Positions 29,496 to 45,612 of a stretch of DNA of 64,000 nucleotides are shown one piece after another (position 1 is the first letter of the stretch; every line of letters starts with the position of its first letter). This DNA is from a virus. The position numbers and the translations under genes are program-made. The stretch lies in the IMG/VR virus record IMGVR_UViG_3300034520_000378. One strand, written 5' to 3'. Below the pieces are notes generated by a model that made no database searches, was not told where the DNA came from, and saw nothing but the letters and a program-made list of their open reading frames with translations.

Positions 29496-29508
29496 GCATC
29501 AACTCCTC

Positions 29509-31436: not shown

Positions 31437-31905
31437 GGCTTATCCTCCTAGCCTCGCTGCCAAGCGCAAAGTTAACGGCCATCTTCGATTCCTGCATCGC
31501 AGCAACCGCCCTGCGCCTTGCAGTAGCCTTTGCAGCATTGTCAAAGAACCCGCGGCCTATTGAGTTGCCATTTCTGACACCGGGCGTTGGTCTGTACGTA
31601 AACGCTCTTTGCCCCAGTATACCGCCCAGGGTGTAAGCAAGCTGACCGAATGATAACCCCCACATCACCGGACTGGCAACCTTCCACAGTAGCAAATCGA
31701 AGGCGGCGCGGCCAGCTGCGCCCACCAGCCCTTCCTTGGGATTTTCCTTCATGCGATTTGCTACGTCCCAGGCCGTCAGTCCCACGGTGAGCACGGTGCC
31801 GAAGCCTATACCGTGCGGAATAACCGCCTGCTTCAGAAGGTACCCGCCAGCTCTGACATTGTTGACAGCATTGTTGATAAAGGTAGATGCCTTAAAACCA
31901 GGCAA
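31414..31905 (-). CDS. Gly/Ala-rich basic protein (possible internal virion protein)
   Basis: 163-aa ORF in operon with hydrophobic stretches. Confidence 0.5.
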   Translation of the reverse strand: MPGFKASTFINNAVNNVRAGGYLLKQAVIPHGIGFGTVLTVGLTAWDVANRMKENPKEGLVGAAGRAAFDLLLWKVASPVMWGLSFGQLAYTLGGILGQRAFTYRPTPGVRNGNSIGRGFFDNAAKATARRRAVAAMQESKMAVNFALGSEARRISRGYFDSF

Positions 31906-31921
31906 CGACGATCACTCCCCT

Positions 31922-32338
31922 TTAGCCGTTGCGCAACGCATGCAGCGCAAGCGCCAGCTCGCCATCAGCCCCCAGATGGTCAAGGAACCCACCTGTTTGT
32001 ATCTGCTTTTTCTGCAGGTTGGGCGTCCTGGTCTCTCCGGTGAGCGATTCTACATCACCAACGTTGACGAGCCCCACACTGGCGCGAACCGGACCAGTAG
32101 CCAGGCCAACAGCGAACGCGCCGCCCAATACCGTTGGCGTTACCCATCTCCTGTATGCAAAGCCCAAAGCGTTGTCAGCAGGCTTGATGAACAACGGCTT
32201 AACACGCGTCGCGACATTCAATACGTCGTCTGCTACACTGGTCGTATCTTTGAATACGTCACCAAGAAAACGCCGCGCACCGGATGCGGTATCAAAGATC
32301 TTGTCCAGCGTCCGCCCAATCGCAGCACCAGCACCCAT
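31922..32338 (-). CDS. Gly/Ala-rich protein
   Basis: 138 aa, AGGAG RBS, C-terminal GADGELALALH. Confidence 0.5.
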   Translation of the reverse strand: MGAGAAIGRTLDKIFDTASGARRFLGDVFKDTTSVADDVLNVATRVKPLFIKPADNALGFAYRRWVTPTVLGGAFAVGLATGPVRASVGLVNVGDVESLTGETRTPNLQKKQIQTGGFLDHLGADGELALALHALRNG

Positions 32339-32362
32339 TTAAACCACTCCTTCAGTCAACAA

Positions 32363-33007
32363 TTACACAAACGGTATACCAGCTATATCAAATTCACCTT
32401 CTCTGTTGTGGAACATACCGCCACCACCGGTTATCGCCCTGCCAAGAGTGCCTAACCCCATAAGACCTCCAGCAGTTATACCCATTCTGATACCCCAAGC
32501 ACCCCAGTCACGATGACGCGTAACAGGATCCACCATCTTGGGCGAAAACCATGCTTTGGCACCTGCGCCTAAACTGCTGCGTATCGCCTTTACCCGCTGT
32601 GCAGCAGCGGCATTAGCAGCAGCAGTTGCTTGAGAAATGTTATCCTTCAACACGTCGGCAAAATACTCAAGAGTGTCAATGTCGCCAGGGCCATAAGTCC
32701 TGCCCAGCAACTCAATGGCGTCTGTGCCACCCTTTTTGAAGTAATCAATAGCGTTTTGAAAGTACTTGAGCAGCCCTTTATCTTCGCCCAGCTTTTCTAT
32801 GCTCTTCTTTAGCTGCTCTCCCGCTATCTTTCCGCCCTGCTTCTGCCACGCCTGTGCTACGTTGTCGGCTACGTCACCAAACACTCTGCGAAACTTGTCA
32901 TTGCTGGCAATCTCATGAGGCAACCCTTTAAGATCGTCAGCAACCGCCCTCGCCATACGTTGAGCCCTTGCAAAGCTGTTAGCAGCTATTGTTCCTATTC
33001 GCGCCAT
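32363..33007 (-). CDS. Gly/Ala-rich protein
   Basis: GGAGG before ATG 33007; C-terminal G-rich segment ending FDIAGIPFV. Confidence 0.5.
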   Translation of the reverse strand: MARIGTIAANSFARAQRMARAVADDLKGLPHEIASNDKFRRVFGDVADNVAQAWQKQGGKIAGEQLKKSIEKLGEDKGLLKYFQNAIDYFKKGGTDAIELLGRTYGPGDIDTLEYFADVLKDNISQATAAANAAAAQRVKAIRSSLGAGAKAWFSPKMVDPVTRHRDWGAWGIRMGITAGGLMGLGTLGRAITGGGGMFHNREGEFDIAGIPFV

Positions 33008-33029
33008 ATCGTCCCCTCCACACGCATAG

Positions 33030-33701
33030 TTAGTTTGACTGCACGTCAATGATGTTAAAAAGCCCAAGCTCCTTAGCCTTGGCTATAACATCCGCAGCAA
33101 CGGAGCTGGGGTCTTTGCCCCTGAATGATGCGTTCTTGTCCTTCCTGGTTGAGTTCAAAAGCTGCAGTATCCTGTGCCGCTCCTTCCTGAGCTTTTCCTT
33201 GTACTCTACAGCACGGGCTATCTCCGGTTTCGTAAACTCCATGCCGTCCTCGGTAACAAATACCGGAACCTCTTCAACAAACTCCGGCCGCGCAGCCATG
33301 TAGTGATCGGCCCGCATAAGCTGTATGTCAAGGTCGATAAGCTCCTTGATAAGCGTGAGATCCACTATATCTTCTTCGGTTATCTCAAGGTGCTTGCAGT
33401 ATTTGTCAAACAGAACGATGATTGTGGCTATTTCTATTGGACAGCGGCCGCGCTGCTGCGGCCTGTCATCCGGTGCAATATAGCACGTCTCCACATATGG
33501 ACATTTCTCACCGCGGCATATCATAGGCACCTGCGCCAGTATGCCATGCTTCACGCGGGTTATGGCACCCGCTTTGTTTATGCCGCGCTTTGATGCCTCG
33601 TCTATCCCCCACACCTCTGCTATAAGAGCGGCATTGGGACTGCTCAGCGCTTTCATCGTTTCGTCACTGAGAGGTACCAAGTCTTCAGCCAAATCTGTCA
33701 C
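33030..33701 (-). CDS. Candidate terminase small subunit with Cys4 motif
   Basis: C-x4-C-x5-C..C-P-I-E then helical region and L.STRKDK; size and position upstream of terL. Confidence 0.5.
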   Translation of the reverse strand: MTDLAEDLVPLSDETMKALSSPNAALIAEVWGIDEASKRGINKAGAITRVKHGILAQVPMICRGEKCPYVETCYIAPDDRPQQRGRCPIEIATIIVLFDKYCKHLEITEEDIVDLTLIKELIDLDIQLMRADHYMAARPEFVEEVPVFVTEDGMEFTKPEIARAVEYKEKLRKERHRILQLLNSTRKDKNASFRGKDPSSVAADVIAKAKELGLFNIIDVQSN

Positions 33702-33704
33702 CCC

Positions 33705-34952
33705 TTACAACCGCACTTCCTTGCGTATAGACATCCTGCTTATGCGGTTCCGATCGTCATACTCATATGTAGTCGTTATAACAAGGTTGCCCTCCGTCTC
33801 AATCTCGGCCACCCTGTTCCCTTTTTCGTCATACAGGAACTCGATTGTCTTGTTTATCTGACCAGACCACGTCTCACGTATCACGCGGTCGTTTTCGTCA
33901 TACTCAATCATGATGTCCACATTACAGTCAGCAAGCCGAGAGTTGAGCCTGTGTGAAAGAGAGGTGTAACCACCAGCACAAGCAGCGCTCTCGATGTCCA
34001 CGCCATCCACAATAAAGTGGATCCGCTCTCCACCAAGGAACGGATCGTTAAACTGTACGGTGTACTCGTCCACCTCTACGTAGTCGTTGTCGCTGCCCGG
34101 TGTGTAAAGCACGCCGTTAACAAAAACCCTGAGCCTGCCGGTACCATACGGATACGGATAAGCAAGATGGAATACCGTCTGCTCAGGTTCGGCTGTGTGT
34201 ACCTCGGTAAAACCCATGCCAGGAACGGCATTCTCTACCAGAAACCGGACCACAGCACCCTGGGGAAGCGGATAGTTAAAACGGACCGTGTGCGCGTCCA
34301 CTTCCACATAGTCATCCTGCTCGCCGCATCCCATGAGAAGACCGTCAACAAAGACGCGCAGCTTGCCAGCGCCAACCGGATACTTGTGCTGCAGGACAAA
34401 TTCCTGCTGGCCTTCCTGCGCTACGTATACCTCGCTAAACGTGTATCCGATCGCTCCTGCTTCGATGGCATCCAGCCTTTGCCCTAGAGAGTCATACGCT
34501 CCCCGCGCCTCGTATATCTCCTTGGTCACGCCACCCTTCTGAAGAAAAGGGCGCATGTCCTCAATACTTACAGAACCAGCTGAACACGATACCCTGCCAA
34601 GAAGCAGCTTGTCCGCAGCATCAAGAGGAGCATCGCTGTAAGAAACTACACCATCTTCACCAAGGTATATGTAATACCATTGCCCGTCAGCCGCGCCGTC
34701 TATCCTGAGAACAACATCGCTCCTCGTCAGGACAGGCGTCTCGTTGATAAAAGCCAGCCCCGGCGCAATGGTTACAACTATGCCGCCATTATCAAGCACT
34801 GCTTCCGTTATCTTGTAGTCAGCAAGCAGATTGCTCCCTATATCGTCAAGGCGCGCCTTGAGCGTGCTGTACTGCCCGCGCGCCTCCACTACCTCGTTAT
34901 AAACACTATCCAGTTTGGGGCTGTTGAGCTGAAACTCTCCTATCCTGCGCAT
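33705..34952 (-). CDS. Virion protein with two beta-sandwich repeats and a YD-like C-terminus
   Basis: Two LRVFV.G...DYVEVD..TV.FN.P repeats, two EARG.Y..L..RLD motifs, three YD..(G/D)NR/RV turns; first gene of the late block. Confidence 0.6.
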   Translation of the reverse strand: MRRIGEFQLNSPKLDSVYNEVVEARGQYSTLKARLDDIGSNLLADYKITEAVLDNGGIVVTIAPGLAFINETPVLTRSDVVLRIDGAADGQWYYIYLGEDGVVSYSDAPLDAADKLLLGRVSCSAGSVSIEDMRPFLQKGGVTKEIYEARGAYDSLGQRLDAIEAGAIGYTFSEVYVAQEGQQEFVLQHKYPVGAGKLRVFVDGLLMGCGEQDDYVEVDAHTVRFNYPLPQGAVVRFLVENAVPGMGFTEVHTAEPEQTVFHLAYPYPYGTGRLRVFVNGVLYTPGSDNDYVEVDEYTVQFNDPFLGGERIHFIVDGVDIESAACAGGYTSLSHRLNSRLADCNVDIMIEYDENDRVIRETWSGQINKTIEFLYDEKGNRVAEIETEGNLVITTTYEYDDRNRISRMSIRKEVRL

Positions 34953-35017
34953 TACGGCACCCCTGCTTTGCAATAGCCTCTCTTATACGTATATACCTGC
35001 TCATGCACAGGCGAATG

Positions 35018-35047
35018 TTGCCGTGACGGCTTATTTGATGGTATAAT
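35018..35047 (+). promoter_or_regulatory. sigmaA-like promoter
   Basis: TTGCCG-N18-TATAAT with TG extension. Confidence 0.55.
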
Positions 35048-35078
35048 ATGACTGTGAAACACATAGAATCAGGGAGTG

Positions 35079-35255
35079 ATGCGAAGAGATTGCATTCTGC
35101 CCCGATAGCGACCTGCCCACCGCCCAATAGACGACCTGCTCGACGCCGTCTACTCGCTCACCGGCCGGCGCTACACATGGTACTACGACCCGCCAACTAA
35201 TACGCTGTACATCAACTCCACAGCCGGCGGCCTGCCGCTCTTCCAGGGCAGGTGA
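35079..35255 (+). pseudogene. 58-codon frame interrupted by one amber codon
   Basis: Promoter, AGGGAG RBS, ATG, TAG at 35106, open to TGA 35255, then terminator. Confidence 0.4.
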
Positions 35256-35264
35256 AAGACACAC

Positions 35265-35303
35265 AAAAAGCCCCCGGGAGAAACTCCTCCCGGGGGCTTT
35301 TTT
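35265..35303. terminator. Bidirectional intrinsic terminator
   Basis: AAAAAGCCCCCGGGAG-AAACTC-CTCCCGGGGGCTTTTTT. Confidence 0.85.
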
Positions 35304-35323
35304 GTGCGCGCCCGGCATGGGCG
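35304..35323 (+). mobile_element. 5' stub of a group IIC intron
   Basis: GTGCGCGCCCGGCATGGGCG directly after a terminator T-run. Confidence 0.65.
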
Positions 35324-35349
35324 ATGAGGAAGGACTGAACGTCAGGAGA

Positions 35350-35566
35350 CTACGGTACGTACGGTATACAGCAGTTCGTTAGGATTGATGTACTACTTGA
35401 TATCTCGCACATCATTTCTTCCATCTCCTGACGCCGTTGATACACTATGCGCTTCCACTGTTTCTTGTGATTTCATCTCTTCCTTCAGCGGTTCAACTAG
35501 TGGTTCCAACTAGCAAGCCTACAGCGGACTTTCACCGCCTAGTTATCACTCATGCCGGACGCACAC
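35350..35566 (-). mobile_element. Internally deleted group IIC intron remnant
   Basis: GTGCGTCCGGCATGAGTG..GGCGGTGAAAGTCCGC (domain I start) right after the flagellin terminator; degenerate domain V GAACTGCTGTATACCGTACGTAC at 35350-35378; no RT ORF. Confidence 0.75.
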
Positions 35567-35571
35567 GAAAT

Positions 35572-35597
35572 AGGCCAGAGGGTTTTCCTCTGGCCCT
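35572..35597 (-). terminator. Flagellin terminator
   Basis: GGCCAGAGG-AAAAC-CCTCTGGCC followed by TATTT. Confidence 0.75.
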
Positions 35598-35610
35598 TTC
35601 TCTTTTATGC

Positions 35611-36849
35611 TTACCTGAGTAACTGCAGTACCGCCTGAGGTAGCTGATTGGCCTGGGCAAGCATGGCCGTTGCAGCTTGCTGCAGGATACTCTGCTTGGT
35701 GAATTCCATCATTTCCTTTGCCATGTCTACGTCGCGGATGCGGGACTCGGCTGCGGTCAGGTTTTCGGCTGCTACGGATAGGTTGTTGATGGTATGTTCG
35801 AGGCGGTTCTGGTATGCACCAAGTTTGGAACGTTCTGCAGATACCGTATCAATTGCAGCTTGAATTTTAGTAACCGCATTAGCGGCGTTGGTGGCATTGC
35901 TTACATCTAAAGCGTACTCTACAGCTGTATTATTTGTTCCGTTAGTTACAGTCATGCTTGAAGTAAACCCACTACTACCCGTGTTGCTACTAATGCCCAA
36001 GGCAGACGCCCGCATGTCAGATAGATCCAGAGTCATAGTCTGGTTTTCATTAGCACCGATTTGCATTATAAAAGAAGAAGATTTAGCAGGAGTCGGGTTA
36101 TAAATACCTGGTGTTAAACCTATTGCTGATAGACTACCTGAGGTAGGAGTTTTAATTTCAATGCTGTCGGTAGTATTGCTTGCGGTAATCACTAACGCAT
36201 TGCCGCTCTTAGTAACAGTTGCGGCACCCGATAAGGCTGTATTTAGATCGGTGACCAAGGTATCAATGGTATTAGTTGACCCATCATAATTCTTGTTCAA
36301 GGCAACGGTCTTTGTTGTACCGCCTATAACAACATCAAAAACCAAGTTTGTAGTAGAAAAATCTGTACTTGTGCCCAAAGTGATGGTAGTACCAGTTACA
36401 GTAGCCGCTGTTCCCGCTGTTACCGTACCTGCCGTAGCATTAAGAAGTTTCTGGGTGTTAAATTCTGTAGTATTGGCTATGCGGTTGATTTCAGATGTAA
36501 GTTGGTTAATTTCCTTCTGGATTTCTGCACGGTCTTTATCGGTATTGGTATCATTACCAGCCTGGATAGCCAATTCCCTCATACGTTGGAGAATGCTGTG
36601 GACTTCGTTCAGCGCACCTTCGGCAGTCTGTATCATAGAAATAGCATCTTGGGCATTTCGTACCGATTGATTTAAACCTCTAATCTGAGCGCGCATCTTC
36701 TCGCTTATCGCCAGACCTGCCGCATCATCGCCGGCACGATTAATCCTGAGGCCCGATGAGAGTTTCTCCAGCGACTTCTGAAGTGAAGAGTTGTTGATGG
36801 AAAGCTGCCTGTACGCATTAAGCGCACTTATGTTTTGGTTAATCCTCAT
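35611..36849 (-). CDS. fliC: Flagellin
   Basis: MRINQNISAL..LEKLSSGLRINRAGDDAAGLAISEKMR; C-terminal RSKLGAYQNRLE..SRIRDVDMA..QAVLQLLR; Thr/Ser-rich variable middle. Confidence 0.98.
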   Translation of the reverse strand: MRINQNISALNAYRQLSINNSSLQKSLEKLSSGLRINRAGDDAAGLAISEKMRAQIRGLNQSVRNAQDAISMIQTAEGALNEVHSILQRMRELAIQAGNDTNTDKDRAEIQKEINQLTSEINRIANTTEFNTQKLLNATAGTVTAGTAATVTGTTITLGTSTDFSTTNLVFDVVIGGTTKTVALNKNYDGSTNTIDTLVTDLNTALSGAATVTKSGNALVITASNTTDSIEIKTPTSGSLSAIGLTPGIYNPTPAKSSSFIMQIGANENQTMTLDLSDMRASALGISSNTGSSGFTSSMTVTNGTNNTAVEYALDVSNATNAANAVTKIQAAIDTVSAERSKLGAYQNRLEHTINNLSVAAENLTAAESRIRDVDMAKEMMEFTKQSILQQAATAMLAQANQLPQAVLQLLR

Positions 36850-36875
36850 GAATCATACCTCCTTGTATTATTGTT

Positions 36876-36895
36876 CTCCCCGGTCCTTCGGGGAG
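36876..36895 (-). promoter_or_regulatory. CsrA-binding hairpin in the flagellin leader
   Basis: CTCCCCG-AAGGAC-CGGGGAG (ANGGAN hexaloop); second AAGGA site overlaps the SD. Confidence 0.8.
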
Positions 36896-36944
36896 TAGTT
36901 TTGTTTGACAATCAGACCGGTCTGAATTGTCTTTTCACCATAAT

Positions 36945-36971
36945 ATATCGGCATACAGAGAGATAACTTTA
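36945..36971 (-). promoter_or_regulatory. sigma28 (SigD/FliA) promoter
   Basis: TAAA-N15-GCCGATAT, exact consensus. Confidence 0.92.
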
Positions 36972-37073
36972 GGGCCACTCGATCAAATTGACCACCGTTT
37001 TTGACGCTGACAGCCGAATATCCCCACAAATGTGCTGCTTTTCGTCGACTTTCAGCTTTTTTCGCGCAAATAC

Positions 37074-37235
37074 TTACTCCTCTTCGTATTCGTCCAGTTC
37101 AAGCCGGAGGACCTTTACATTGGGCGGTGCTTCAATACCGATCTTGACCTTGCTGCCGTCGATTTCGACTATTCGCACGATAACGTCTTTACCAATGCGG
37201 ACGCCTTCGTCCACCCTCCTCGTGACCACAAGCAT
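37074..37235 (-). CDS. csrA: Carbon storage regulator CsrA, short form (53 aa)
   Basis: Below the ORF-track cutoff; MLVVTRRVDEGVRIGKDVIVRIVEIDGSKVKIGIEAPPNVKVLRLELDEYEEE with GGAGG RBS. Confidence 0.92.
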   Translation of the reverse strand: MLVVTRRVDEGVRIGKDVIVRIVEIDGSKVKIGIEAPPNVKVLRLELDEYEEE

Positions 37236-37269
37236 GTGTATACCCCTCCCTGGTTAGATTGCTATATTA

Positions 37270-37294
37270 CTTCTACATTCGTCGACAAATTCCT
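37270..37294 (-). promoter_or_regulatory. sigmaH-like promoter upstream of csrA
   Basis: AGGA-ATTT..(N17)-GAAG. Confidence 0.5.
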
Positions 37295-37549
37295 CCCTGA
37301 TACGTAAACAAAGTCACGCCACATGCATAATCTTCAAGCGACGTGCTTCTTCAAACAAGCGCTGTTCAATAGCGCGCCTGTATTCCTCAGGCATGGGCGG
37401 CAGGTCTTTCCTCCTACTCGATTTTTGGCCCACCTCAGCAAGCACTAAGCTCAACAGCGCCGCTCTTTAGCCATTCCAAAACTCTGTGCGCCGCCTCATC
37501 AGTTAAGCCATAGTGGCCTGATATGCTTATCATCCTGCCTATGTAAGTA

Positions 37550-37574
37550 ATTCGACGTCCACGCTAATTTTCCT
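37550..37574 (-). promoter_or_regulatory. sigmaH-like promoter
   Basis: AGGA-AAAT..GTC(N17)-GAAT. Confidence 0.65.
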
Positions 37575-37590
37575 CCTTCAACTAGGAGCT

Positions 37591-40500
37591 TTAAGCGATA
37601 TCTAATGGTGGCAATCCTTCTATAATCTTCATTGTTTCAACACTTACTCGTACAAGCCGCTTGATAAGATCGATTATATAGCGCGGGTTGTCTTGCTCCT
37701 CAAGCCATTTATTTGGGTCGTTGATAATGCCGCTTTTTCTATCCCTAGAAACCTGGTAGCGTTCCATAACCCACTCGATTGCCGGTTTTCCGTTGACTAC
37801 ATATTCGTAGGCTTCAAGCGGAATCCCGCTAAGGGTAATGTTTTCATTGTAGATGATTGTTGTCTTGTCATCCTGGCGATCTCGTGTTTTTCTGAAGCGC
37901 ATCTTAGAAACCTTGTATGTAACCAAGTCATTAGGATCGCCCTTGATTTCTTCCTTCAGCGGCCACGGCTCAACTGTTTCGTAGTTAAGATGGAGTTCTG
38001 CAAGTCTGCGTCCAGCATTACTGAATGCCCAGAAGTCCCCTGCCGAAGATACGAACGGAATCCGGGGAAGCACCTTCTTTAGATCATTTCTGTAGCGTTC
38101 ACGGTACTCGGAGGAGTGCAGGAGACCGTAGATGTAGTAGAAGATATCCTCTTTTGTTACATCTCCGCCGTAGCGCTTACGGTATTCCTCCAGCGCCCAA
38201 TCAGTGATGTTCTCATTGCGGATGTAGCGATTCCCGGAAGGTGTAGTTATAACTTCGCTATCTGGATGGTTGTCAAAAATGCTAATGTTTTGGTTGGTGG
38301 ATTCAGTGACTCTTTCGTATATATAGAGTGGGAATACTTGAATATCACCAATAAGATGTAAATCAGGAATGTGGTTGACAATTAATGTAGAAAACTCTTT
38401 TGAACTTCCTGGTGCTCTTACAGTAATCGCGATGTTTTCGATGCCAGGTTCTGGGAAAATCTTATGTTGCGAAGACGTTCGATCATTAAATATACGACTA
38501 AAGTAAATGTTTATTTTAACAAATGGCCGATATACAGCGTTTCTAATTTCACCAGCCTCTTGAAAAGTATACTTCTTTCGTCTAAAAATTGCTGATTTTA
38601 AACTGCTTGACCAAGCAATTCTTCTATGATCATTGTTAATCATTGATTCTAAATTTTCACGTGTAATTAATCCGGAAATAACAAGATCAACATGCCGGTT
38701 AAATTCTTCGATTGTTCGCATCATGTTTTCTTTAAGAACTTCTTGCGAAAAATTATATGCCCACGTATCTCTGCTTGTACTTACTCCAGTGGAATACTCT
38801 ATGAAAATAACGTTTTTTGCTCTTGGAGATGAATCCTTACTTCTAATCTCTGGGAATGTCTCAAAGTCTTCACTCCGCTGATTGATCCAGTCATGTACCG
38901 AATTTGGCACAATGCGTTTCCATGCCACTCCGCGGATGTCCCCGTATGCCTGCAGGCGCGCCAGTTTTTCCTCCCGGCTCAGGTAGTCACCGATGTCGTG
39001 GTAATAAATCTCCGCTTGACCCGTTTTGGACTTATCTTTAACAAGAATGAGCAATGCCACACCCGCACGGCTGCCTTGACCAAAAATTTTACCGCCTTCT
39101 CTACGCCAGGCTTCACCAGAAAGACGTGCGTTCCCGCGAAGATTAAGGACATAAATCTTCGCAAACTCATCAGCCAGGCACTTGCGGAGACCGTTGGCAG
39201 CAGCGCCGTCGAGAAAACCGCTGTTGGTTACAAAAGCGATAATACCCTTATCTTCAATGCGGTCGGTAGCCATTCGAATAGCGCGGATGTAAGAATCATA
39301 TAGAGCAATCTTAAGACGAGCTGCCGAATGTGCAGCATAGGTTTGACGTATTTTTCTATCCAATCTAGGATATTTAACTGCTTTATTCCCGAGGTTTTCA
39401 TCCTCTTGCCATGCAAACCATGGCGGATTTGAGATAATCACGTTTATCCGCGCTTTTTTCTGCTTCTCCATTAGTTCTGTATACTGCTCTGGGAAAATCG
39501 ATATTTGCACAGCACTTCTAGACTCCATAAGCTGGAAAGAGTCAACTAAAAGTAAATTGCGGAACGGCACGTGCTCTCCCGTCAATTCATAATACGTGCT
39601 TTCAATATTGGCAAGGGCAATATAATAAGGCAAAAGCAGAATCTCGTTTCCCCAGATTTCACCAGCACAGTATTTCCTAACAAGAGCTTCAGGCGCGATC
39701 TGGTACAGCTGATACATAAGCCGCACAAGGAAAGTCCCTGTTCCAGCAAATGGTTCAAGTATAACTACATTTTCGTCTGAAAGACTTGTGCCAAATTCAG
39801 CCTGTAAAACTGCTTCGGTACTTTTCACAAGGAAGTCTACAACCTCTACAGGAGTATAAACAATTCCTAAACGGTCGGCTGTCTTCGGGAAAGCGATTTT
39901 GAAGAAAGTGTCGTAGAGCTGACGCAGAAAGTCCTGCCGCTCGGCTTCTTTATCCAGTCCTCTAGCCCGCACCTTTATAAGCCGGTAAAATTCCTTCAAG
40001 GCTTGAGTCTCTCTATCGACGAATACTTCAAAAATACTGGCTAAGCTATCAAAACTGCGGGCAATGGGATTTTCTTTTAGGAATTCGTATTCATCAAAGA
40101 TCGCGTCAAAGATTGGTTTTGTGACTATGTGCTGCACCAGCATACCGCGAGCTTCTTCTTCGGTAATGGAAGGATTGATAATGCTGCGGAGCGCAGCCAA
40201 AAAGCCGGCAAACGCCTCACGGGTCTTTCTGCCGTATTCGCCGTCATGCTGCAATGCATCTGCGATATGTCGTTCAAGGCGAGCTGTTGCTGAAGCAACG
40301 TCCTTGGCCCACGTCTCTAGATAAGCACGTTCACCCACACGCTCAACCATCCTGCCGAGAATAGCATCGTAAAGCTCATCCTCAAAGTCAAAAGATAACT
40401 GCTCACCCCCGCTGGCTATAACAATGACATCATCGTCTGTGTATATCGTCTGGTCTCTTCCTCCTTTATTATGCGTCCGCCGGATATGCAGTTCTCTAAC

Positions 40501-42357
40501 CATGGCATCAAAGCGGTCATCAATGGAACGCAGAGCACCCAAAACCTCCCATACAGTGCGGAATTCCTCGTTTTTATCGAGCTGTTCTGCCGCATCGCGC
40601 TTAGGGTCTACTATAATGGGAAGTATAACATAACCGTAACGTTTCCCGGGAGCTTTCCGCATAACACGACCAACAGCCTGTACGACGTCAACCACACTTC
40701 TGCGAGGCTTGAGGAAAACTACAGCATCAAGAGCAGGCACATCAATTCCCTCTGTAAGCACTTTTGCATTAGAAAGCACACGCGTCTCGCCAGGTCCAGG
40801 CTCGTCCCTTAGCCAGTCCAGATACGCCTTACGCTGCGTCGCACTCATGGAACCGTCAATATGGCGCACTTCAAACCTGCGAAATTCGCCTTCACTACCA
40901 GTGGCCTCATAGTAGGCCTCAGTAGTCTTTACGAAGTATTCGGAGAACTTTTTTGAGTCAGCAATGCGCCCTGCAAAAACCACCGCTCTTTTCAGTGGAG
41001 GAATGGATTCATTCTTAATGCGCCCGCTTAGAGCGTTCCATACACCGACTATCTTAGCTGCCCATTCGAGTTGCGGCGCATCTTCGTAGTTAAGGAAATC
41101 AAAAAGCCTCCGCTGTACCGCGGCTTCATTGATTGTAAAGACTACGACCTTGTAATCACTAAGTACATTGTCATCTACAGCCTGCCCAAAGCCGTAACGG
41201 AAAAACTCCTCCCCGTATGTCCTTTCATCATCCATTGTGAAGTATTTATAACCTAGTTCTTCCAATCTCTCCCTAATCCGAGGCACAAATACCCGTGGAG
41301 TAGCCGTCATATAAAGCCTTTTTGCTCCCCGTATTATTTCATTATCATGCACTTTGTGGTAGTATGATGCTTCCTCGTCCTGCATTACACCGGTGGTGCG
41401 GTGAGCCTCATCAGCAATGATAAGGTTAAATTCAGGCAGCCCCAGTTTCTGCGCCTCCGCAACCACGTCAATGGAGTGATACGTGGAAACAATTACTGTC
41501 ATCTTGCCCTGGCTGGGTTTCCCGGCATCAGCAGCAAGTATAGCAGGATCGGTCGTCGGAGGAATTGAAAGCACCGTCGTTTGGTCGATAGAATCTTCAT
41601 CGCGGCCTACCGTATAATCGGAGGTAACAGCGTAAACACGTAACGGCAATTCTGTATCCATAAGCCATGCTCTAAGCGTTTGTTCTACTAAGGCAATGGA
41701 TGGAGCAAGAAACAGCACATACCCACCTGACCCAACAAGTCTTTCTGCTATCTTTAAGGCTACGAAAGTCTTGCCAGAACCGGGAGGCATAATAAGCTTG
41801 CCGCGGTCACTACGGCTGAACCCTTTTATTACCGCTTCAACGGCGTTCTGTTGATAAGGACGTAACTCTTTCTTCGGCAAGAGAGGAAGCTCTTCGGGGT
41901 TATTCCAGTCAAATTTGTCCCAGTCAATAGAACTCTCTAGCATAGTTGATAAAGATACAATAACTACAGGCTTTTCCTGATGCTCTAATGCCTGCTCTGC
42001 AGTACTGCTTAGAGGAGCTGTGGTAACAATCATACGATAACTGAACTCTCTACGTCCCGAAAGAGCAAGAAACGTAGATATGTCTTGAAAGCTAATTTGC
42101 TTGCTATGAAACTTCGCTTGAATGGCCCATAAAGCGCCGCTCTCACGTTCTTCTGCTACAAGGTCAATGCCGGAATCAATCTCACTACCACGTCCAGGCC
42201 ATTCAGACCAGCGCCATACATTTGAGAACAACTGGCCGTAGTAGCTGTCACGACGAAGATACGCCGCAACAAAACGCTCAAAAAGCTCGCCTTGTTCACG
42301 TTTAGTCTTTGCAACTGTCCGTAGACGGGAAAGAATCTTCTCGATACTACCACTCAT
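37591..42357 (-). CDS. Type ISP restriction-modification enzyme (LlaGI/LlaBIII-like)
   Basis: 1588 aa: Mrr-like nuclease (GIDLVA..AIQAK), SF2 ATPase (PPGSGKT, DEAH, QAVGRVMR), N6-MTase (EPFAGTGTF, NPPW), C-terminal TRD with YRPF and RIP motifs. Confidence 0.93.
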   Translation of the reverse strand: MSGSIEKILSRLRTVAKTKREQGELFERFVAAYLRRDSYYGQLFSNVWRWSEWPGRGSEIDSGIDLVAEERESGALWAIQAKFHSKQISFQDISTFLALSGRREFSYRMIVTTAPLSSTAEQALEHQEKPVVIVSLSTMLESSIDWDKFDWNNPEELPLLPKKELRPYQQNAVEAVIKGFSRSDRGKLIMPPGSGKTFVALKIAERLVGSGGYVLFLAPSIALVEQTLRAWLMDTELPLRVYAVTSDYTVGRDEDSIDQTTVLSIPPTTDPAILAADAGKPSQGKMTVIVSTYHSIDVVAEAQKLGLPEFNLIIADEAHRTTGVMQDEEASYYHKVHDNEIIRGAKRLYMTATPRVFVPRIRERLEELGYKYFTMDDERTYGEEFFRYGFGQAVDDNVLSDYKVVVFTINEAAVQRRLFDFLNYEDAPQLEWAAKIVGVWNALSGRIKNESIPPLKRAVVFAGRIADSKKFSEYFVKTTEAYYEATGSEGEFRRFEVRHIDGSMSATQRKAYLDWLRDEPGPGETRVLSNAKVLTEGIDVPALDAVVFLKPRRSVVDVVQAVGRVMRKAPGKRYGYVILPIIVDPKRDAAEQLDKNEEFRTVWEVLGALRSIDDRFDAMVRELHIRRTHNKGGRDQTIYTDDDVIVIASGGEQLSFDFEDELYDAILGRMVERVGERAYLETWAKDVASATARLERHIADALQHDGEYGRKTREAFAGFLAALRSIINPSITEEEARGMLVQHIVTKPIFDAIFDEYEFLKENPIARSFDSLASIFEVFVDRETQALKEFYRLIKVRARGLDKEAERQDFLRQLYDTFFKIAFPKTADRLGIVYTPVEVVDFLVKSTEAVLQAEFGTSLSDENVVILEPFAGTGTFLVRLMYQLYQIAPEALVRKYCAGEIWGNEILLLPYYIALANIESTYYELTGEHVPFRNLLLVDSFQLMESRSAVQISIFPEQYTELMEKQKKARINVIISNPPWFAWQEDENLGNKAVKYPRLDRKIRQTYAAHSAARLKIALYDSYIRAIRMATDRIEDKGIIAFVTNSGFLDGAAANGLRKCLADEFAKIYVLNLRGNARLSGEAWRREGGKIFGQGSRAGVALLILVKDKSKTGQAEIYYHDIGDYLSREEKLARLQAYGDIRGVAWKRIVPNSVHDWINQRSEDFETFPEIRSKDSSPRAKNVIFIEYSTGVSTSRDTWAYNFSQEVLKENMMRTIEEFNRHVDLVISGLITRENLESMINNDHRRIAWSSSLKSAIFRRKKYTFQEAGEIRNAVYRPFVKINIYFSRIFNDRTSSQHKIFPEPGIENIAITVRAPGSSKEFSTLIVNHIPDLHLIGDIQVFPLYIYERVTESTNQNISIFDNHPDSEVITTPSGNRYIRNENITDWALEEYRKRYGGDVTKEDIFYYIYGLLHSSEYRERYRNDLKKVLPRIPFVSSAGDFWAFSNAGRRLAELHLNYETVEPWPLKEEIKGDPNDLVTYKVSKMRFRKTRDRQDDKTTIIYNENITLSGIPLEAYEYVVNGKPAIEWVMERYQVSRDRKSGIINDPNKWLEEQDNPRYIIDLIKRLVRVSVETMKIIEGLPPLDIA

Positions 42358-42375
42358 AAAAATACCTCCTGCTTC

Positions 42376-42777: not shown

Positions 42778-42818
42778 TAGTTTGCCTCCTCTACAATCTT
42801 CTAGGCTTTTTCAGGTCA

Positions 42819-43739
42819 TTACGGCTTACACACCTTACATGGCTCATATCCCGCCTTTATTGCTTCCTCACGTGACTTAAAGTATACTCTATTCCCTGGC
42901 GCTATCTTTTTGGCCCACTGACAGTCCGGGAAATGAAACTTCTTGCTGTTTTTATTCCCTATATAAGAGGCCGATGCTTTGTTGGAAGACTCAGACTCTT
43001 CTTTTATCTCCAACCCCCAGAGCCCCGCATTTTTCTCCCTAGCTTCTTGCTGATATGTCCTGAAATACTCAGCATACTTCACATTCGGCGGCACCGTCAT
43101 GACCTGTGCATAACCTTCCAGCAGAAGCATCGCATTAAACATCTTTGTCCTTACTTCTTCGTCGCTTTCCTTTATTGGCGGCGAAAGCCATATGTACGCT
43201 AAAAGCCTGCCATACTTGTCTCTCTCCTGCACGTCAAGTTCGAGCCACACATCCTTGTTAAGGAGTTTTGATTTCGTATAAGCAGCTGCTTCCTTGCCGT
43301 AGGGCTCTACCTGTGTGGTACTTTCCGGTGTGTCTACACCGATGAACCGTACCTTTTCTTCTTTGCCATTCTCTAGCTTGATGTATACAGTGTCACCATC
43401 TACTACTTTCATTACTCTAGCCTTGATAAGATTAACTCCTGTATTCTTAGTATTTCCTGCTGTTGAAGAAGGCACGGTTTTACTTTCTTCCTTTGAGTTT
43501 GCTCCATCCTTTGCTGTAGGCTGCTGGATAGGCGCCGAAAATGAAACCGCATCATTCTGATGGTTGGATTCGGAGATTACTGCAGTACTACTCCGCTGAA
43601 CGGATTCCTCCAGCTCCGCCGCTTTGTCATTTGCGGAAGCAGAGGGCGGCACTGTTCCGCTACTGCTACATCCTGCAAGCGCCAGGATTATTATTAGAAC
43701 CAACAGAACGGTTATATTACCAGTATTCGCCTTATTCAC
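42819..43739 (-). CDS. Lipoprotein thermonuclease (SNase) with C-terminal Ada-type metal-binding domain
   Basis: Lipobox LAGC; VVDGDT, VRFIGVDTPE, DKYGRLLAY, GLW; YIGNKNSKKFH..C..GYEPCKVC; probable start GTG 43739. Confidence 0.9.
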   Translation of the reverse strand: MNKANTGNITVLLVLIIILALAGCSSSGTVPPSASANDKAAELEESVQRSSTAVISESNHQNDAVSFSAPIQQPTAKDGANSKEESKTVPSSTAGNTKNTGVNLIKARVMKVVDGDTVYIKLENGKEEKVRFIGVDTPESTTQVEPYGKEAAAYTKSKLLNKDVWLELDVQERDKYGRLLAYIWLSPPIKESDEEVRTKMFNAMLLLEGYAQVMTVPPNVKYAEYFRTYQQEAREKNAGLWGLEIKEESESSNKASASYIGNKNSKKFHFPDCQWAKKIAPGNRVYFKSREEAIKAGYEPCKVCKP

Positions 43740-44008
43740 CCTCAAGGCCTTCCTCCCCCCTCCTTCTAGAGCACTAAAGAACTTCTCACCGTACACTACG
43801 CAACTTGCCTCTTCGTGTTCAGAAATCTTTCCCACACTCTTCATACACTTCATCGCCCCATATGCCCCGCCATTTATCTAAATACTCCTTTATCCAACCT
43901 TGCAAACCAACTGATCTCGTCATCCCAGCGGTATGGTCAAAAATACTTATTCCTCATAATCCATTCTCCTTTCTACGGGCCTTAAGTATCATTAAACAGT
44001 CGCCTCTT

Positions 44009-45571
44009 TTAACCTGCGCCCGGGGTTCTGCTTTTATCGAAAGAAAACCGTCTCGGGCCCGGTAGTTGAGGCGTTACCTCTTTTACTTCTATCGCAGGTT
44101 GTGCGCCTCTACCGCTAAAAATCCTCTCGATAAAGCTAGAAACTTTAACTACCGCGTTAACTGCAGCGTTTAAAATAGCCTTGCCAAGTGTATTCTCCTT
44201 CATATCTAACCCAAGCTTATAGGCTTCTGCCTTAAGCTTTTCGGCACATTCGTTCGCCCTTTTCATAGCTGCTATCAGCGGCGGATAATTGAATGGGTTT
44301 TTACTCAACCACATGCAATACTCCATTCCAGGCTTGTAAAACCCGTTTTCCCATCCTTCCCTTCTGTAATACTTCTCCATTACCTGTTTGGCCCGTTCAA
44401 TCTCGCTCAGTAAGTTCTTACGCATCTCCTCTGCACGCCTGCGTATTTCCTCGTATAAAAGTCTCCGCCTGGTCGGCCATAACCAGTTCCAGAAACTGAT
44501 CTTCAACTTCCGCCTTGCCCGTTCTGCCTTTCTGTCAATCGCTTTTATCCTCTCATTAATGGCATCCGGCACAACGCTTACTACCTTGAACACTGCTTCA
44601 TTGAACTCTCTTTTTGCCTCTTCAAATGCTGCCATACGCATACGTCTTGCCAACCCTCTCCCCGCCTTGGCACCAAAGAAAGCTCCTAAAACAGCTCCTA
44701 CAGCCGCACCAAATGGACCAAGAACTGCCCCTCCCAAGGCTACACCAATCTTACTTCCTATATATCCGCCTCCTCCAACGGCTATTGTGTCACGCATCAC
44801 ATTGACAGCTGCCTCGCCTACGCTAATGCGCCCGTTTAACAACAGATTGCCTTCCCGGATAGCTGCTAAAGCAAGGGTTACCAGAGGGATGTGAATACCG
44901 CCATCACCGAGTCTGTCTACCCCATGAATAGTATCCTTTACATGCCTTGCTACTTCATCATGGTGCAGATCGTGATCCACTATGACATTATCATTGCCAT
45001 CAAAATAGTGTGCCATTTCCGCATTTACAATTACAGGTATGTCATGAAACTTGTCCAAATGTTCCCGAATAAGATCAGGATCCATAACACATTTTACCTG
45101 GACCGGATGTCCGTCAACCAATATATCCCATCCTTCTTGATTGGGAATATCAGCAAACTCTACTATATGCCCCTGAGCAGCAAGATGGGCCGCTACAATC
45201 CTTTCCGCCGTATATCCCTCTAATCGTTCCATGGCGCCAGCAATAGACGCCTCTGCCCCTGATAGAAAATGGTCATGCACGTATCTGCTTATTTCGTTAA
45301 AAGTATCCAAATCAAGCTTGCTGGAAAAGTCCATTGCCTCCAGCACACTATCATCTATCATAGCCAGAGCGTGAAACATGTCATAGGCCGTAACCACTCC
45401 GGCAGCAACAGCATCAACATCGCCAACCTGCTTGATAAGAGAGTTAAAGCTCTTGCTTACCTCATCCCCCACTTTAATCTCTGTTCTCAACTCCCTATCA
45501 AGCACCCGCCAGCGCCATCGCCTTATTACTGCAAACACTACAATAGACCCTGCAAGTAGCAAAAGAACCAC
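44009..45571 (-). CDS. Membrane protein with glycine zipper and possible PD-(D/E)xK-like motif
   Basis: 520 aa; N-terminal TM, GxxxG repeats, NQEGWD.LVDG..VQVK, coiled coil. Confidence 0.55.
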   Translation of the reverse strand: MVLLLLAGSIVVFAVIRRWRWRVLDRELRTEIKVGDEVSKSFNSLIKQVGDVDAVAAGVVTAYDMFHALAMIDDSVLEAMDFSSKLDLDTFNEISRYVHDHFLSGAEASIAGAMERLEGYTAERIVAAHLAAQGHIVEFADIPNQEGWDILVDGHPVQVKCVMDPDLIREHLDKFHDIPVIVNAEMAHYFDGNDNVIVDHDLHHDEVARHVKDTIHGVDRLGDGGIHIPLVTLALAAIREGNLLLNGRISVGEAAVNVMRDTIAVGGGGYIGSKIGVALGGAVLGPFGAAVGAVLGAFFGAKAGRGLARRMRMAAFEEAKREFNEAVFKVVSVVPDAINERIKAIDRKAERARRKLKISFWNWLWPTRRRLLYEEIRRRAEEMRKNLLSEIERAKQVMEKYYRREGWENGFYKPGMEYCMWLSKNPFNYPPLIAAMKRANECAEKLKAEAYKLGLDMKENTLGKAILNAAVNAVVKVSSFIERIFSGRGAQPAIEVKEVTPQLPGPRRFSFDKSRTPGAG

Positions 45572-45612
45572 ACATATACCCCCTCCCGGATCCTAATGTG
45601 GTACATTACATT

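What the first reader, a model, noticed from the sequence alone, without database searches (positions are those of the whole stretch)
35611..37294. Phage-borne flagellin-CsrA cassette with a complete host-type control circuit
Seen: an intact flagellin with an exact sigma28 promoter, a CsrA hexaloop site plus an SD-overlapping site, and a terminator, with csrA directly upstream. Phage genes lie on both sides and there is no fliW or other flagellar gene. Known: in Bacillus/Clostridia fliW-csrA-hag form a partner switch, and prophage flagellins paired with TnpB-derived TldR repressors remodel host filaments. No tldR is present here. Inference: a TldR-independent way to alter the filament, for example to exclude flagellotropic phages, with the phage CsrA damping host flagellin translation.
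Basis: partly seen in the sequence, partly recalled or inferred. Interest (0 to 1): 0.8.

Follow-up and report, generated by a model that had tools for sequence, protein, structure and literature searches.

The report
Phage flagellin with FliW-blind CsrA
A large temperate phage carries a 2.2-kb cargo module: an intact flagellin gene with host-style control signals, plus a shortened CsrA repressor that lacks the part the host protein FliW needs to switch CsrA off. The same two-gene module recurs in other, unrelated phages, so it is probably a portable way of altering the host's flagella.

Summary
Observation confirmed. Window 35611-36849(-) is an intact 412-aa flagellin. It has the only exact sigma-D/sigma-28 consensus in 64 kb, a 7-bp hairpin showing AAGGAC in its loop, a GGA-containing Shine-Dalgarno sequence and a terminator. 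A 53-aa CsrA gene lies 224 nt upstream.

The 172.7-kb record is an IMG/VR provirus that starts at a tyrosine integrase. It has no FliW, no other flagellar gene and no credible TldR.

New here:
- **FliW docking is missing.** The CsrA ends before N55, the residue FliW needs. N55 (or N54) is present in 56/56 FliW-linked CsrAs and in 0/14 fliW-less ones. A 74%-identical relative is also short; 69%-identical relatives are full length.
- **The doublet recurs.** A short csrA directly upstream of flagellin, never with fliW, occurs in 9 of 20 flagellin-bearing viral records from different phages. It also occurs as a secondary locus in some Bacillota chromosomes.
- **Independent assemblies agree.** Compost and soil metagenomes from three other studies hold sister phages with the cassette, and variants that replace or lack it or lack the neighbouring restriction island.
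- **The flagellin is mosaic.** Its ends and its middle have different closest relatives.

Most likely this is a TldR-independent variant of phage flagellar remodelling. Which mRNA the CsrA represses is not shown. The scan had flagged this same stretch before.

The parts
35611..36849 (-). Flagellin gene, 412 aa, intact D0/D1 ends plus a central outer domain of about 185 aa
   Evidence: Pfam Flagellin_N 1-137/139 and Flagellin_C 2-86/86. Closest solved chains are B. subtilis-type filament flagellins, matching at both ends. 88% identical to a Clostridiales MAG protein and 81-83% to Neomoorella/Desulfotomaculum flagellins. Mosaic: the ends are 91-97% identical to P0008/P0009 whose middle is only 46-48% identical, while the middle is 91% identical to P0002.
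36945..36971 (-). Sigma-D (sigma-28) type promoter, TAAA-N15-GCCGATAT
   Evidence: Single exact match in the window, 0.03 expected from shuffles. It lies 96-122 nt upstream of the flagellin ATG.
36876..36895 (-). Leader hairpin with a 7-bp stem and hexaloop AAGGAC: candidate CsrA binding site 1
   Evidence: Present in both the MFE and centroid folds of the leader. Also picked up as an inverted repeat by the scan.
36858..36864 (-). Shine-Dalgarno AAGGAGG containing GGA: candidate CsrA binding site 2, 24 nt from the GGA of site 1
   Evidence: Read directly from the sequence. The same ACGGAGG/AAGGAGG arrangement is seen in the other phage doublets.
35572..35596 (-). Terminator-like hairpin just after the flagellin stop (10 bp, weak U-tract)
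35303..35571 (.). Highly structured region of about 270 nt between the two terminators, inside the cassette; function unknown
   Evidence: 50-nt imperfect inverted arms at 35294-35343 and 35527-35576. Fold z = -5.8 on the minus strand and -5.3 on the plus strand. No Rfam family. No copy in any other locus fetched.
35265..35302 (.). Strong bidirectional terminator hairpin (16-17 bp); the left border of the cassette (35282) lies in its loop
   Evidence: Joint and loose ends at 35282 in runs X5 and X10.
37074..37235 (-). csrA, 53 aa, RNA-binding core intact, C-terminal FliW-docking part absent
   Evidence: PF02599 at 63 bits. Aligns without gaps to residues 1-47 of B. subtilis CsrA (1t3o) and to 5dmb. 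R44 is kept, but the protein stops at residue 53, so there is no N55. Relatives: 98% (53 aa), 74% (56 aa), 69% (73 aa, with the ENK tail). The three differences in sister strain X5 are all synonymous.
37314..37454 (-). Small ORF (46 aa, TTG start) upstream of csrA, no family; the right border of the cassette (37453) lies at its start
37550..37574 (-). Sigma-H-like consensus (AGGAWWW-N11/12-RNNGAAT) upstream of the small ORFs and csrA. A second copy lies at 45613-45637(-) in front of the membrane-protein gene
Evidence: 2 matches in the window against 0.18 expected. This is a consensus match only.
35283..37452 (-). The cassette as bounded by variant joints in sister phages: structured element, flagellin, leader, csrA and the small ORF
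   Evidence: Joint 35282->37453 in X10 (depth 87; only 30 letters on the shorter side, at 85% likeness). Contigs in X5 carry other sequence inside these two points.
37591..42357 (-). Neighbouring cargo: Type ISP restriction-modification enzyme, 1588 aa
   Evidence: Pfam Type_ISP_C 4e-107, Mrr_cat_2, ISP_coupler, ResIII, N6_Mtase. Together with 42376-45571 it is skipped (37540->45859) in an abundant X5 strain that keeps csrA.
42819..45571 (-). Further low-GC cargo: SNase-type nuclease with an Ada zinc domain (42819-43853) and a glycine-zipper membrane protein (44009-45571)
   Evidence: GC is 42-49% across about 35500-45700 against about 53% in the rest of the record.

Best explanation
This is a portable two-gene accessory-flagellin module, carried as lysogenic-conversion cargo by a temperate jumbo phage of a flagellated Bacillota host.

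Inferred steps:
1. The flagellin is transcribed by the host's sigma-D RNA polymerase from its own promoter.
2. It is exported by the host flagellar apparatus and built into the filament. Its central, surface-exposed domain is exchangeable.
3. The co-resident CsrA keeps the RNA-binding core but has lost the C-terminal region with N55 that FliW must contact. It therefore acts as a translational repressor of GGA-bearing flagellin leaders that the host's FliW sensor cannot switch off.
4. Because host csrA is normally kept 1:1 with fliW, an extra FliW-blind CsrA should lower translation of the resident flagellin. That would shift filament composition toward, or limit it to, what the phage dictates.

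Shown here: the gene content, the control signals, the loss of the FliW interface, the recurrence of the module in other phages and its mobility.

Inferred only: expression, incorporation into the filament, and which mRNA(s) the phage CsrA represses.
For: - Intact flagellin, unique sigma-D promoter and a dual GGA site.
- The CsrA core aligns 1:1 with B. subtilis CsrA and keeps R44 but ends at residue 53.
- N55 or N54 is present in 56/56 FliW-linked CsrAs (median 77 aa), in 0/6 viral CsrAs and in 0/8 genomic fliW-less CsrAs.
- N55 is required for FliW binding, and FliW does not antagonise CsrA N55D (10.1101/2020.07.02.184341; PMC6529632).
- CsrA produced without matching FliW blocks motility (PMC6529632, PMC13443453).
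- The short form is conserved in a 74%-identical relative, while 69%-identical relatives are full length with the ENK tail.
- The three csrA differences in a sister strain are all synonymous.
- The doublet is found in 9 of 20 flagellin-bearing viral records, never with FliW, in phages of 23-195 kb. Terminase, portal, polymerase or endolysin genes lie nearby in four of the five records scanned.
- Host loci instead carry fliW-csrA in 56 of 62 csrA-bearing loci.
- The window CsrA is only 21-41% identical to the other short CsrAs, so truncation probably arose more than once.
- The same doublet occurs in a 195-kb phage and an Oceanobacillus chromosome.
- Sister phages in three other studies carry the cassette.
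- The flagellin is mosaic.
- An integrase lies at the provirus edge.
- Published precedent: in csrA-tldR-fliC loci, the linked CsrA binds the 5' UTR of the rival fliC (PMC13418256).
Against: - The phage flagellin's own leader has a strong pair of CsrA sites, so the phage CsrA should repress it as well. Nothing here shows selectivity for the host gene.
- The host genome, and so its hag leader and FliW, could not be recovered.
- The flagellin is 80-91% identical in its central domain to Neomoorella-type and MAG flagellins. If the host is of that kind, the filament surface would change little.
- No expression data are available.
- In this phage csrA lies outside the sigma-D promoter, unlike several other doublets. 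When it is made is unknown.
- Loss of N55 predicts loss of FliW binding from B. subtilis genetics only. It was not measured for this protein.
Confidence: 0.45

Rival explanations
1. Self-contained dosage control. The short CsrA exists mainly to restrain its own linked flagellin. It would be a portable, FliW-free homeostat that lets an extra flagellin gene land in any host without toxic over-production. Any effect on the resident flagellin would be little or incidental.
For: - Every doublet keeps GGA sites between csrA and flagellin.
- In L007, L078, L035, L066, L030 and L055 a sigma-D-like promoter lies upstream of csrA, so repressor and target appear to share one mRNA.
- Doublets also occur as secondary flagellin loci in chromosomes that already hold a fliW-csrA-hag set (L066).
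- Unrestricted cytoplasmic flagellin is harmful in B. subtilis (PMC6529632).
Against: - A diffusible RNA-binding protein that recognises generic GGA hairpins is unlikely to ignore the host flagellin leader, which has the same architecture (N. carbonis leader).
- Published RIP-seq for a linked CsrA shows binding to the rival fliC UTR (PMC13418256).
- In this window csrA is not on the sigma-D transcript.
Confidence: 0.2
2. Flagellar shut-off. Both genes push the host Hag-FliW-CsrA switch to OFF. The FliW-blind CsrA represses all flagellin translation, and surplus phage flagellin soaks up FliW and frees host CsrA. The result would be fewer flagella. That would save resources and remove a phage receptor, giving superinfection exclusion.
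For: - In the B. subtilis model, cytoplasmic flagellin sequesters FliW, and CsrA without FliW abolishes motility (PMC6529632, PMC13443453).
- The phage CsrA lacks N55.
- Eleven other viral contigs encode short CsrAs with no flagellin, so CsrA alone appears useful to phages.
Against: - The flagellin has complete export and assembly ends and a motility-phase promoter. It should be secreted and assembled rather than accumulate.
- Exchange of the central domain suggests selection on an exposed surface, which makes no sense for a cytoplasmic decoy.
Confidence: 0.15
3. Passenger DNA. A piece of a host csrA-hag region was picked up by illegitimate recombination and has no function for the phage.
For: - csrA sits directly upstream of the flagellin gene in most Bacillota host loci.
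- The cassette lies in a low-GC cargo island.
- Some sister genomes lack or replace it.
Against: - Both ORFs and all signals are intact.
- The short CsrA form persists at 74% identity, and the changes seen in a sister strain are synonymous.
- The fliW-less doublet recurs in nine viral records from different phages, although fliW abuts csrA in hosts.
- Two unrelated CsrA lineages are both truncated.
Confidence: 0.1
4. Artefact or misplacement: a chimeric assembly, or the host flagellar locus abutting the prophage.
For: - IMG/VR labels the record a provirus at 80% completeness.
- The cassette's GC differs from the rest of the phage.
Against: - The cassette lies about 100 kb from one end of the record and 72 kb from the other, with phage genes on both sides.
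- A 26.7-kb contig from an independent assembly of the source run spans 28500-43101 without a single difference.
- Contigs from three other studies bridge the phage gene/flagellin and csrA/restriction-enzyme junctions.
- The record holds no other flagellar gene.
Confidence: 0.03
5. It is the known TldR system after all, with the RNA-guided repressor encoded elsewhere in the phage.
For: A 459-aa ORF at record positions 129663-131042, outside the window, has weak sub-threshold hits to the TnpB TNB and HTH domains.
Against: - It is 30 kb from the flagellin, whereas known loci are adjacent.
- It keeps RuvC-like GIDL and IEDL motifs, whereas TldRs are defined by RuvC inactivation.
- No match of 12 nt or more links its surroundings to the phage or N. 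carbonis flagellin loci. Matches of 11 nt are at chance level.
- PF01385 is absent from this record and from four other doublet phages, and PF07282 from five.
Confidence: 0.03

Closest known systems
Hag-FliW-CsrA partner switch of Bacillus subtilis and other Bacillota (Mukherjee/Oshiro/Kearns; PMC6529632, 10.1101/2020.07.02.184341)
   Same: A sigma-D-driven flagellin whose leader has a GGA hairpin plus a GGA-containing Shine-Dalgarno sequence. A CsrA gene lies directly upstream in the same orientation. The CsrA RNA-binding core is conserved.
   Different: There is no fliW. The CsrA is 53 aa against a median of 77 aa and lacks N55. csrA is not translationally coupled to fliW. The module sits in a phage, not in the flagellar regulon.
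Prophage fliC(P)-tldR flagellin-remodelling module of Enterobacter FR-phi phages (10.1101/2023.11.30.569447; PMC13418256)
   Same: A temperate phage carries its own flagellin as cargo, together with a dedicated repressor expected to act on flagellin expression.
   Different: The repressor here is a post-transcriptional RNA-binding protein (CsrA), not an RNA-guided TnpB-derived transcription factor. There is no guide RNA. The host is Gram-positive. The cargo flagellin keeps host-type sigma-D and CsrA control.
Chromosomal csrA-tldR-fliC loci of Oscillibacter/Flavonifractor (PMC13418256)
   Same: A csrA paralogue is genetically tied to an accessory flagellin. In the published model, that CsrA binds a flagellin 5' UTR.
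   Different: There is no tldR between csrA and the flagellin (224-nt spacer) and no hin-type invertase in the record (no Resolvase family). The locus is phage-borne, whereas the 2023 paper states no phage association was detected for csrA-associated TldRs.
CsrA/Rsm paralogues on phages and other mobile elements in Gram-negative bacteria (Pseudomonas survey PMC7366521)
   Same: A small CsrA-family gene carried by a mobile element. I found 11 further viral contigs with short CsrAs and no flagellin.
   Different: Here the CsrA is tied to a flagellin gene and derives from a FliW-regulated lineage that has lost the FliW interface.

Membership tests
Flagellin (Pfam PF00669 + PF00700) | Full-length N-terminal and C-terminal helical domains (D0/D1) | tested here: met
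   175 bits and 104 bits, covering 1-137/139 and 2-86/86 of the profiles. Best PDB matches are filament flagellins.
CsrA/RsmA family (PF02599) | Five-strand core with conserved RNA-binding residues (positions 2-7 and R44) | tested here: met
   63 bits against a cut-off of 27. Gap-free alignment to solved CsrAs over residues 1-47. R44 is invariant in all 70 aligned CsrAs.
Hag-FliW-CsrA partner switch | A fliW gene is present, normally directly upstream of csrA | tested here: not met
   No FliW in the 172.7-kb record by Pfam or by my own HMM at E<=1. None in the five other doublet phages or the 19 viral flagellin loci.
Hag-FliW-CsrA partner switch | CsrA carries the C-terminal extension with N55 that FliW contacts | tested here: not met
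   The protein ends at residue 53. N55/N54 is present in 56/56 FliW-linked CsrAs and 0/14 fliW-less ones.
Hag-FliW-CsrA partner switch | Flagellin leader with two CsrA sites, one overlapping the Shine-Dalgarno sequence, behind a sigma-D promoter | tested here: met
   Binding itself was not tested.
fliC(P)-tldR prophage module | A TnpB-derived, RuvC-inactive TldR gene adjacent to the phage flagellin | tested here: not met
   The neighbours are csrA and a Type ISP enzyme on one side and a 422-aa repeat protein on the other. PF01385 is absent from the record. The only TNB-like ORF is 30 kb away and keeps D/E motifs.
fliC(P)-tldR prophage module | A guide RNA complementary to the host flagellin promoter or gene | tested here: inconclusive
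   No match of 12 nt or more to the phage or N. carbonis flagellin loci.
csrA-tldR-fliC loci of Clostridia | tldR between or beside csrA and fliC, often with a hin invertase upstream | tested here: not met
   The spacer is 224 nt with no ORF. There is no Resolvase-family gene in the record.
Temperate phage / prophage cargo (moron) | An integrase, an own promoter and terminator, deviant composition, and presence/absence among sister phages | tested here: met
   PF00589 integrase at record positions 1-960. Promoter and terminators. Low-GC island. Variant joints in sister phages. Integration into a host was not seen directly, because the host flank is trimmed from the record.

The most novel reading that the evidence does not exclude
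Phages of Gram-positive bacteria repeatedly evolved FliW-blind CsrA proteins by cutting off the FliW-docking tail, and paired them with exchangeable flagellins. The result would be a self-regulating, horizontally mobile 'filament swap' unit that overrides the host's flagellin homeostasis checkpoint. This doublet would be the simple ancestor into which TnpB later inserted to give the csrA-tldR-fliC loci.
Probability: 0.3. Interest if true: 0.8.

Novelty: new variant of a known kind. Interest (0 to 1): 0.62.

Why it matters
Phage-driven remodelling of flagella has so far been tied to RNA-guided TldR repressors, in Enterobacteriaceae prophages and in Clostridia chromosomes.

This cassette suggests a second, simpler route in Gram-positive hosts. 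The phage brings a flagellin together with a CsrA that has lost the one interface through which the cell senses flagellar assembly. If that holds, three things follow:
- It gives a natural 'N55-less' allele series for studying the FliW-CsrA checkpoint.
- It explains why some flagellin genes in phages, and some secondary flagellin genes in chromosomes, come with their own small csrA.
- It points to the flagellar filament surface as a contested interface in soil and compost communities, for phage receptors or other recognition.

The prediction can be tested directly with existing B. subtilis swarm and reporter assays.

Tried and rejected
The 213,643-bp parent contig and the contexts of P0002-P0009 could not be fetched, and the host flank was not seen.
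- **Sister phages by neighbouring proteins.** The 422-aa neighbour found nothing in viral contigs. Terminase searches in viral and metagenome contigs gave only relatives of 68% identity or less, with no useful context.
- **Host search.** The terminase query found nothing close in 28 Moorellia genomes or in a 401-genome phylum sample.
- **CsrA alignment A2** was too diverse for a pattern scan.
- **D41K charge reversal as a second anti-FliW feature.** Dropped, because K41 occurs in 10/56 FliW-linked CsrAs.
- **CsrA-sponge idea for the structured 3' region.** Rejected. I counted 6-7 GGA motifs by eye in 328 nt, which is about the chance expectation.
- **Rfam and tRNA scans of 34900-37700.** Only sub-threshold terminator-driven hits.
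- **Target-site duplications or att-like repeats at the cassette borders.** None found.
- **Fossil of the lost tail.** A colinear VSICAKKA against VSVENKKA lies in the -1 frame after the csrA stop, but it is not significant (E 3.4).
- **RNA runs X15-X20.** There is no expression evidence and no habitat claim from them.
- **Central-domain swap seen** (35841->36673 replaced by 870 letters). It rests on short contigs with 85-87% identical ends, which may come from a host or another organism. I rely for mosaicism instead.
Full report
**What is there.** The window is positions 64238-128237 of a 172,670-bp IMG/VR record classed as a provirus, with a CheckV completeness of 80%.

On the minus strand, 35611-36849 encodes a 412-aa flagellin with complete Flagellin_N and Flagellin_C domains. 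Its best solved relatives are B. subtilis-type filament flagellins, matched at both ends around an extra central domain.

- The motif TAAA-N15-GCCGATAT lies 96-122 nt upstream of the ATG, at 36945-36971. From established knowledge this is the sigma-D/sigma-28 consensus of Bacillota. It is the only exact match on either strand of the window, against 0.03 expected.
- The leader of about 96 nt folds (z = -2.7) into two hairpins. The second is a 7-bp stem at 36876-36895 with the hexaloop AAGGAC.
- AAGGAGG at 36858-36864 is the Shine-Dalgarno sequence. Its GGA is 24 nt from the GGA in the loop.
- A 10-bp hairpin follows the stop codon at 35572-35596. A much stronger terminator lies at 35265-35302.
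- A 53-aa CsrA is encoded 224 nt upstream of the flagellin, at 37074-37235 (PF02599, 63 bits).

**Is it really in a phage?** Several lines say yes.

- On one side lie a terminase large subunit (29509-31436, split by a group I intron-like element scoring 39 bits), head and virion proteins, and further structural genes.
- On the other side, beyond a block of cargo genes, lies a DNA helicase.
- A tyrosine integrase starts at the very first base of the record. That fits a prophage trimmed at its edge.
- The whole record has one flagellin, one CsrA, no FliW and no FlgK/L/M/N.
- The cassette lies in a stretch of about 10 kb with 42-49% GC against about 53% elsewhere. That stretch also holds a Type ISP restriction-modification enzyme, a secreted SNase-type nuclease and a glycine-zipper membrane protein.

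I laid public assemblies on 28500-48000.

- A 26.7-kb contig of the source run spans 28500-43101 with no differences.
- Runs from three other studies (two compost, one soil) hold sister phages about 97-99% identical in the flanks.
- Their contigs bridge the phage-gene/flagellin junction (34252-35808) and the csrA-side/restriction-enzyme junction (37477-38019).
- One abundant compost strain keeps csrA and the flagellin 5' end but skips 37540->45859, so it lacks the restriction island.
- Another contig joins 35282 to 37453, and further contigs carry different sequence inside those two points. The joint has only 30 letters on its shorter side and was seen at 85% likeness, so it is a weak single observation.

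The cassette 35283-37452 therefore looks like a discrete, replaceable unit. Misassembly or an abutting host flagellar locus is very unlikely.

**The CsrA has lost its FliW interface.** The protein aligns without gaps to residues 1-47 of B. subtilis CsrA and to the CsrA of the FliW complex 5DMB. Residue numbers therefore transfer directly, and the phage protein stops at residue 53.

In B. subtilis, N55 is required for FliW binding and is reported to be invariant where both proteins occur (10.1101/2020.07.02.184341). FliW does not antagonise CsrA N55D. csrA is translationally coupled to fliW to hold a 1:1 ratio, and CsrA made without matching FliW blocks motility (PMC6529632; also PMC13443453).

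I tested the rule on 80 genome loci and 6 viral loci fetched with the flagellin.

| Set | n | N at position 55 (or 54) | Length |
|---|---|---|---|
| FliW-linked CsrAs (fliW directly upstream in 56 of 62 csrA-bearing genome loci) | 56 | 56 (52 at position 55, 4 shifted to 54) | median 77 aa |
| Viral CsrAs | 6 | 0 | 52-67 aa from the aligned start |
| Genomic fliW-less CsrAs | 8 | 0 | mostly short |

R44 is invariant in all of them.

The nearest database relatives of the phage CsrA are a 98% variant of 53 aa, a 74% relative of 56 aa with a different acidic tail, and two 69% relatives of 73 aa that carry the ENK motif and a full tail. The short form is thus an old, maintained state derived from a FliW-regulated lineage. 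The three differences seen in a sister strain are all synonymous.

The window's CsrA is only 21-41% identical to the other short CsrAs. Most of those share a distinct GRKxGE signature. Truncation therefore probably arose more than once.

**The doublet recurs.** All five viral records first found with the flagellin have a csrA directly upstream (spacers 6-139 nt) and no FliW. In four of the five, PHROGs matches show terminase, portal, DNA polymerase or endolysin genes within a few kb. In one 52.6-kb provirus the doublet sits immediately upstream of the small terminase subunit.

- A wider scan found 19 viral flagellin loci. Eight have the upstream csrA and none has FliW. With the window, that makes 9 of 20, in records of 23-195 kb.
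- Most leaders keep a GGA hairpin and/or an ACGGAGG-type Shine-Dalgarno sequence between the two genes.
- In several doublets a sigma-D-like promoter lies upstream of csrA, so the two genes look like one operon. In the window it lies between them.
- The same kind of doublet occurs in a few bacterial chromosomes. In Alteribacillus it is a secondary flagellin locus next to a normal fliW-csrA-hag set. In others it is an isolated insert.
- By eye, the Oceanobacillus copy closely resembles that of a 195-kb phage in both proteins. No identity was computed.
- Short CsrAs without a flagellin are present in 11 further viral contigs.

**The flagellin.** The closest proteins are from a Clostridiales MAG (88%) and from Neomoorella thermoacetica, N. 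carbonis and Desulfotomaculum nigrificans (81-83% over 92% of the length).

- In N. carbonis that gene is the only flagellin. It lies 3.7 kb from flgL-fliW-csrA behind a similar sigma-D-like promoter and GGA leader.
- It is interrupted near its 3' end by a group I intron (72 bits). The phage copy is uninterrupted.
- Domain by domain, the phage protein is mosaic. Its ends are 91-97% identical to a set of metagenome flagellins (P0008, P0009) whose central domain is only 46-48% identical. Its central domain is 91% identical to the MAG protein, whose ends are 90% identical.
- That pattern suggests recombinational exchange of the surface-exposed domain.

**TldR.** No tldR is adjacent. The record lacks the TnpB core family PF01385. 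The one weak TNB-domain hit is a 459-aa ORF 30 kb away, outside the window. It keeps RuvC-like D and E motifs, and there is no guide-like match to flagellin loci. The other doublet phages also lack both TnpB families: PF07282 in five and PF01385 in four.

The published work describes fliC(P)-tldR in Enterobacteriaceae prophages. It describes csrA-tldR-fliC loci as chromosomal, and states that no phage association was detected for the csrA-associated group (10.1101/2023.11.30.569447; PMC13418256). My four full-text searches found no description of a phage-borne csrA-flagellin doublet or of FliW-blind phage CsrAs. Subscription-only papers are not covered.

**How it most likely works.**
- Shown: the gene content, the signals, the loss of the FliW interface, the recurrence and the mobility.
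- Inferred: host sigma-D RNA polymerase transcribes the flagellin, which the host apparatus exports and assembles. The phage CsrA binds GGA sites in flagellin leaders and cannot be released by FliW, so it uncouples flagellin translation from the host's assembly sensor.
- By analogy with the published CsrA of csrA-tldR-fliC loci, the resident flagellin mRNA is a likely target.
- The main weakness is that the phage's own leader has an equally good pair of sites. The module could instead, or also, limit its own flagellin, or it could simply lower flagellation.
- Two sigma-H-like consensus sites, at 37550-37574 and 45613-45637 (2 found against 0.18 expected), hint that csrA and the other cargo may be transcribed under a different regime from the flagellin. 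These are consensus matches only.

**Verdict.** This is a real, intact, mobile phage cargo module. It works like the known phage flagellin-remodelling systems but is not a member of them, because it has no TldR. It is built from parts of the Hag-FliW-CsrA switch but fails that system's defining tests, because it has no FliW and no FliW interface. I class it as a new variant of a known kind, of moderate to high interest, with a sharply testable prediction.

The scan had already flagged this same stretch in another reading.

Noticed in passing
window 30261-30616 (-): The terminase large-subunit gene is split into 30492-31436 and 29509-30210 by a group I intron-like element (RF00028, 39.3 bits, below the gathering score of 50, E 5e-8).
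   Followed up: partly
L013 11135-11510 (Neomoorella carbonis chromosome): The host-type flagellin gene most like the phage's carries a group I intron (RF00028, 71.9 bits) in its conserved 3' region. That explains the 379-aa 'truncated' flagellins annotated in Neomoorella and Desulfotomaculum. The phage copy has no intron.
   Followed up: partly
window 35303-35571: A region of about 270 nt between two terminators, inside the cassette, folds far better than shuffles (z -5.8 and -5.3 on the two strands) and is closed by 50-nt imperfect inverted arms. It matches no Rfam family and has no copy elsewhere in the record. In the source run, the depth bin 35010-35660 spikes to about 3500 against 89, so part of it may be a repeat that is abundant in that community.
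   Followed up: partly
window 37541-45858: The 8.3-kb block holding the Type ISP restriction enzyme, a 133-aa ORF, an SNase nuclease and a membrane protein is missing from an abundant sister-phage strain in a compost run (joint depth about 609). That strain keeps csrA and the flagellin 5' end.
   Followed up: partly
record positions 129663-131042 (+), L002 541-1920, outside the window: A 459-aa TnpB-like ORF has only sub-threshold TNB and HTH hits. RuvC-like motifs are kept but the zinc ribbon appears to be lost. It is probably a selfish element unrelated to the flagellin.
   Followed up: partly
window 37550-37574 (-) and 45613-45637 (-): Two exact matches to a sigma-H-type consensus lie at the heads of cargo gene blocks (0.18 expected). 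A near-match lies directly upstream of csrA at about 37268-37296.
   Followed up: partly
record positions 1-960 (L139): A tyrosine integrase gene begins at the first base of the record. This fits a provirus trimmed at its attachment-site edge.
   Followed up: no
L055 9537-9884 (Neobacillus mesonae): A 115-aa ORF holds two tandem CsrA-like domains upstream of a flagellin, with no fliW next to it and a tyrosine recombinase-like gene downstream.
   Followed up: no
L131 2454-3086 and 3245-6028 (23-kb viral contig): A CsrA with a long, unrelated C-terminal extension lies upstream of a 927-aa flagellin. This is a different flavour of the doublet.
   Followed up: no
L143-L150, L152, L154, L155 (viral contigs): Eleven viral contigs encode short CsrAs (roughly 55-66 aa for the CsrA part; several called ORFs are longer) with no flagellin within 3 kb. 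Phage CsrAs are therefore a wider phenomenon than the flagellin doublet.
   Followed up: no
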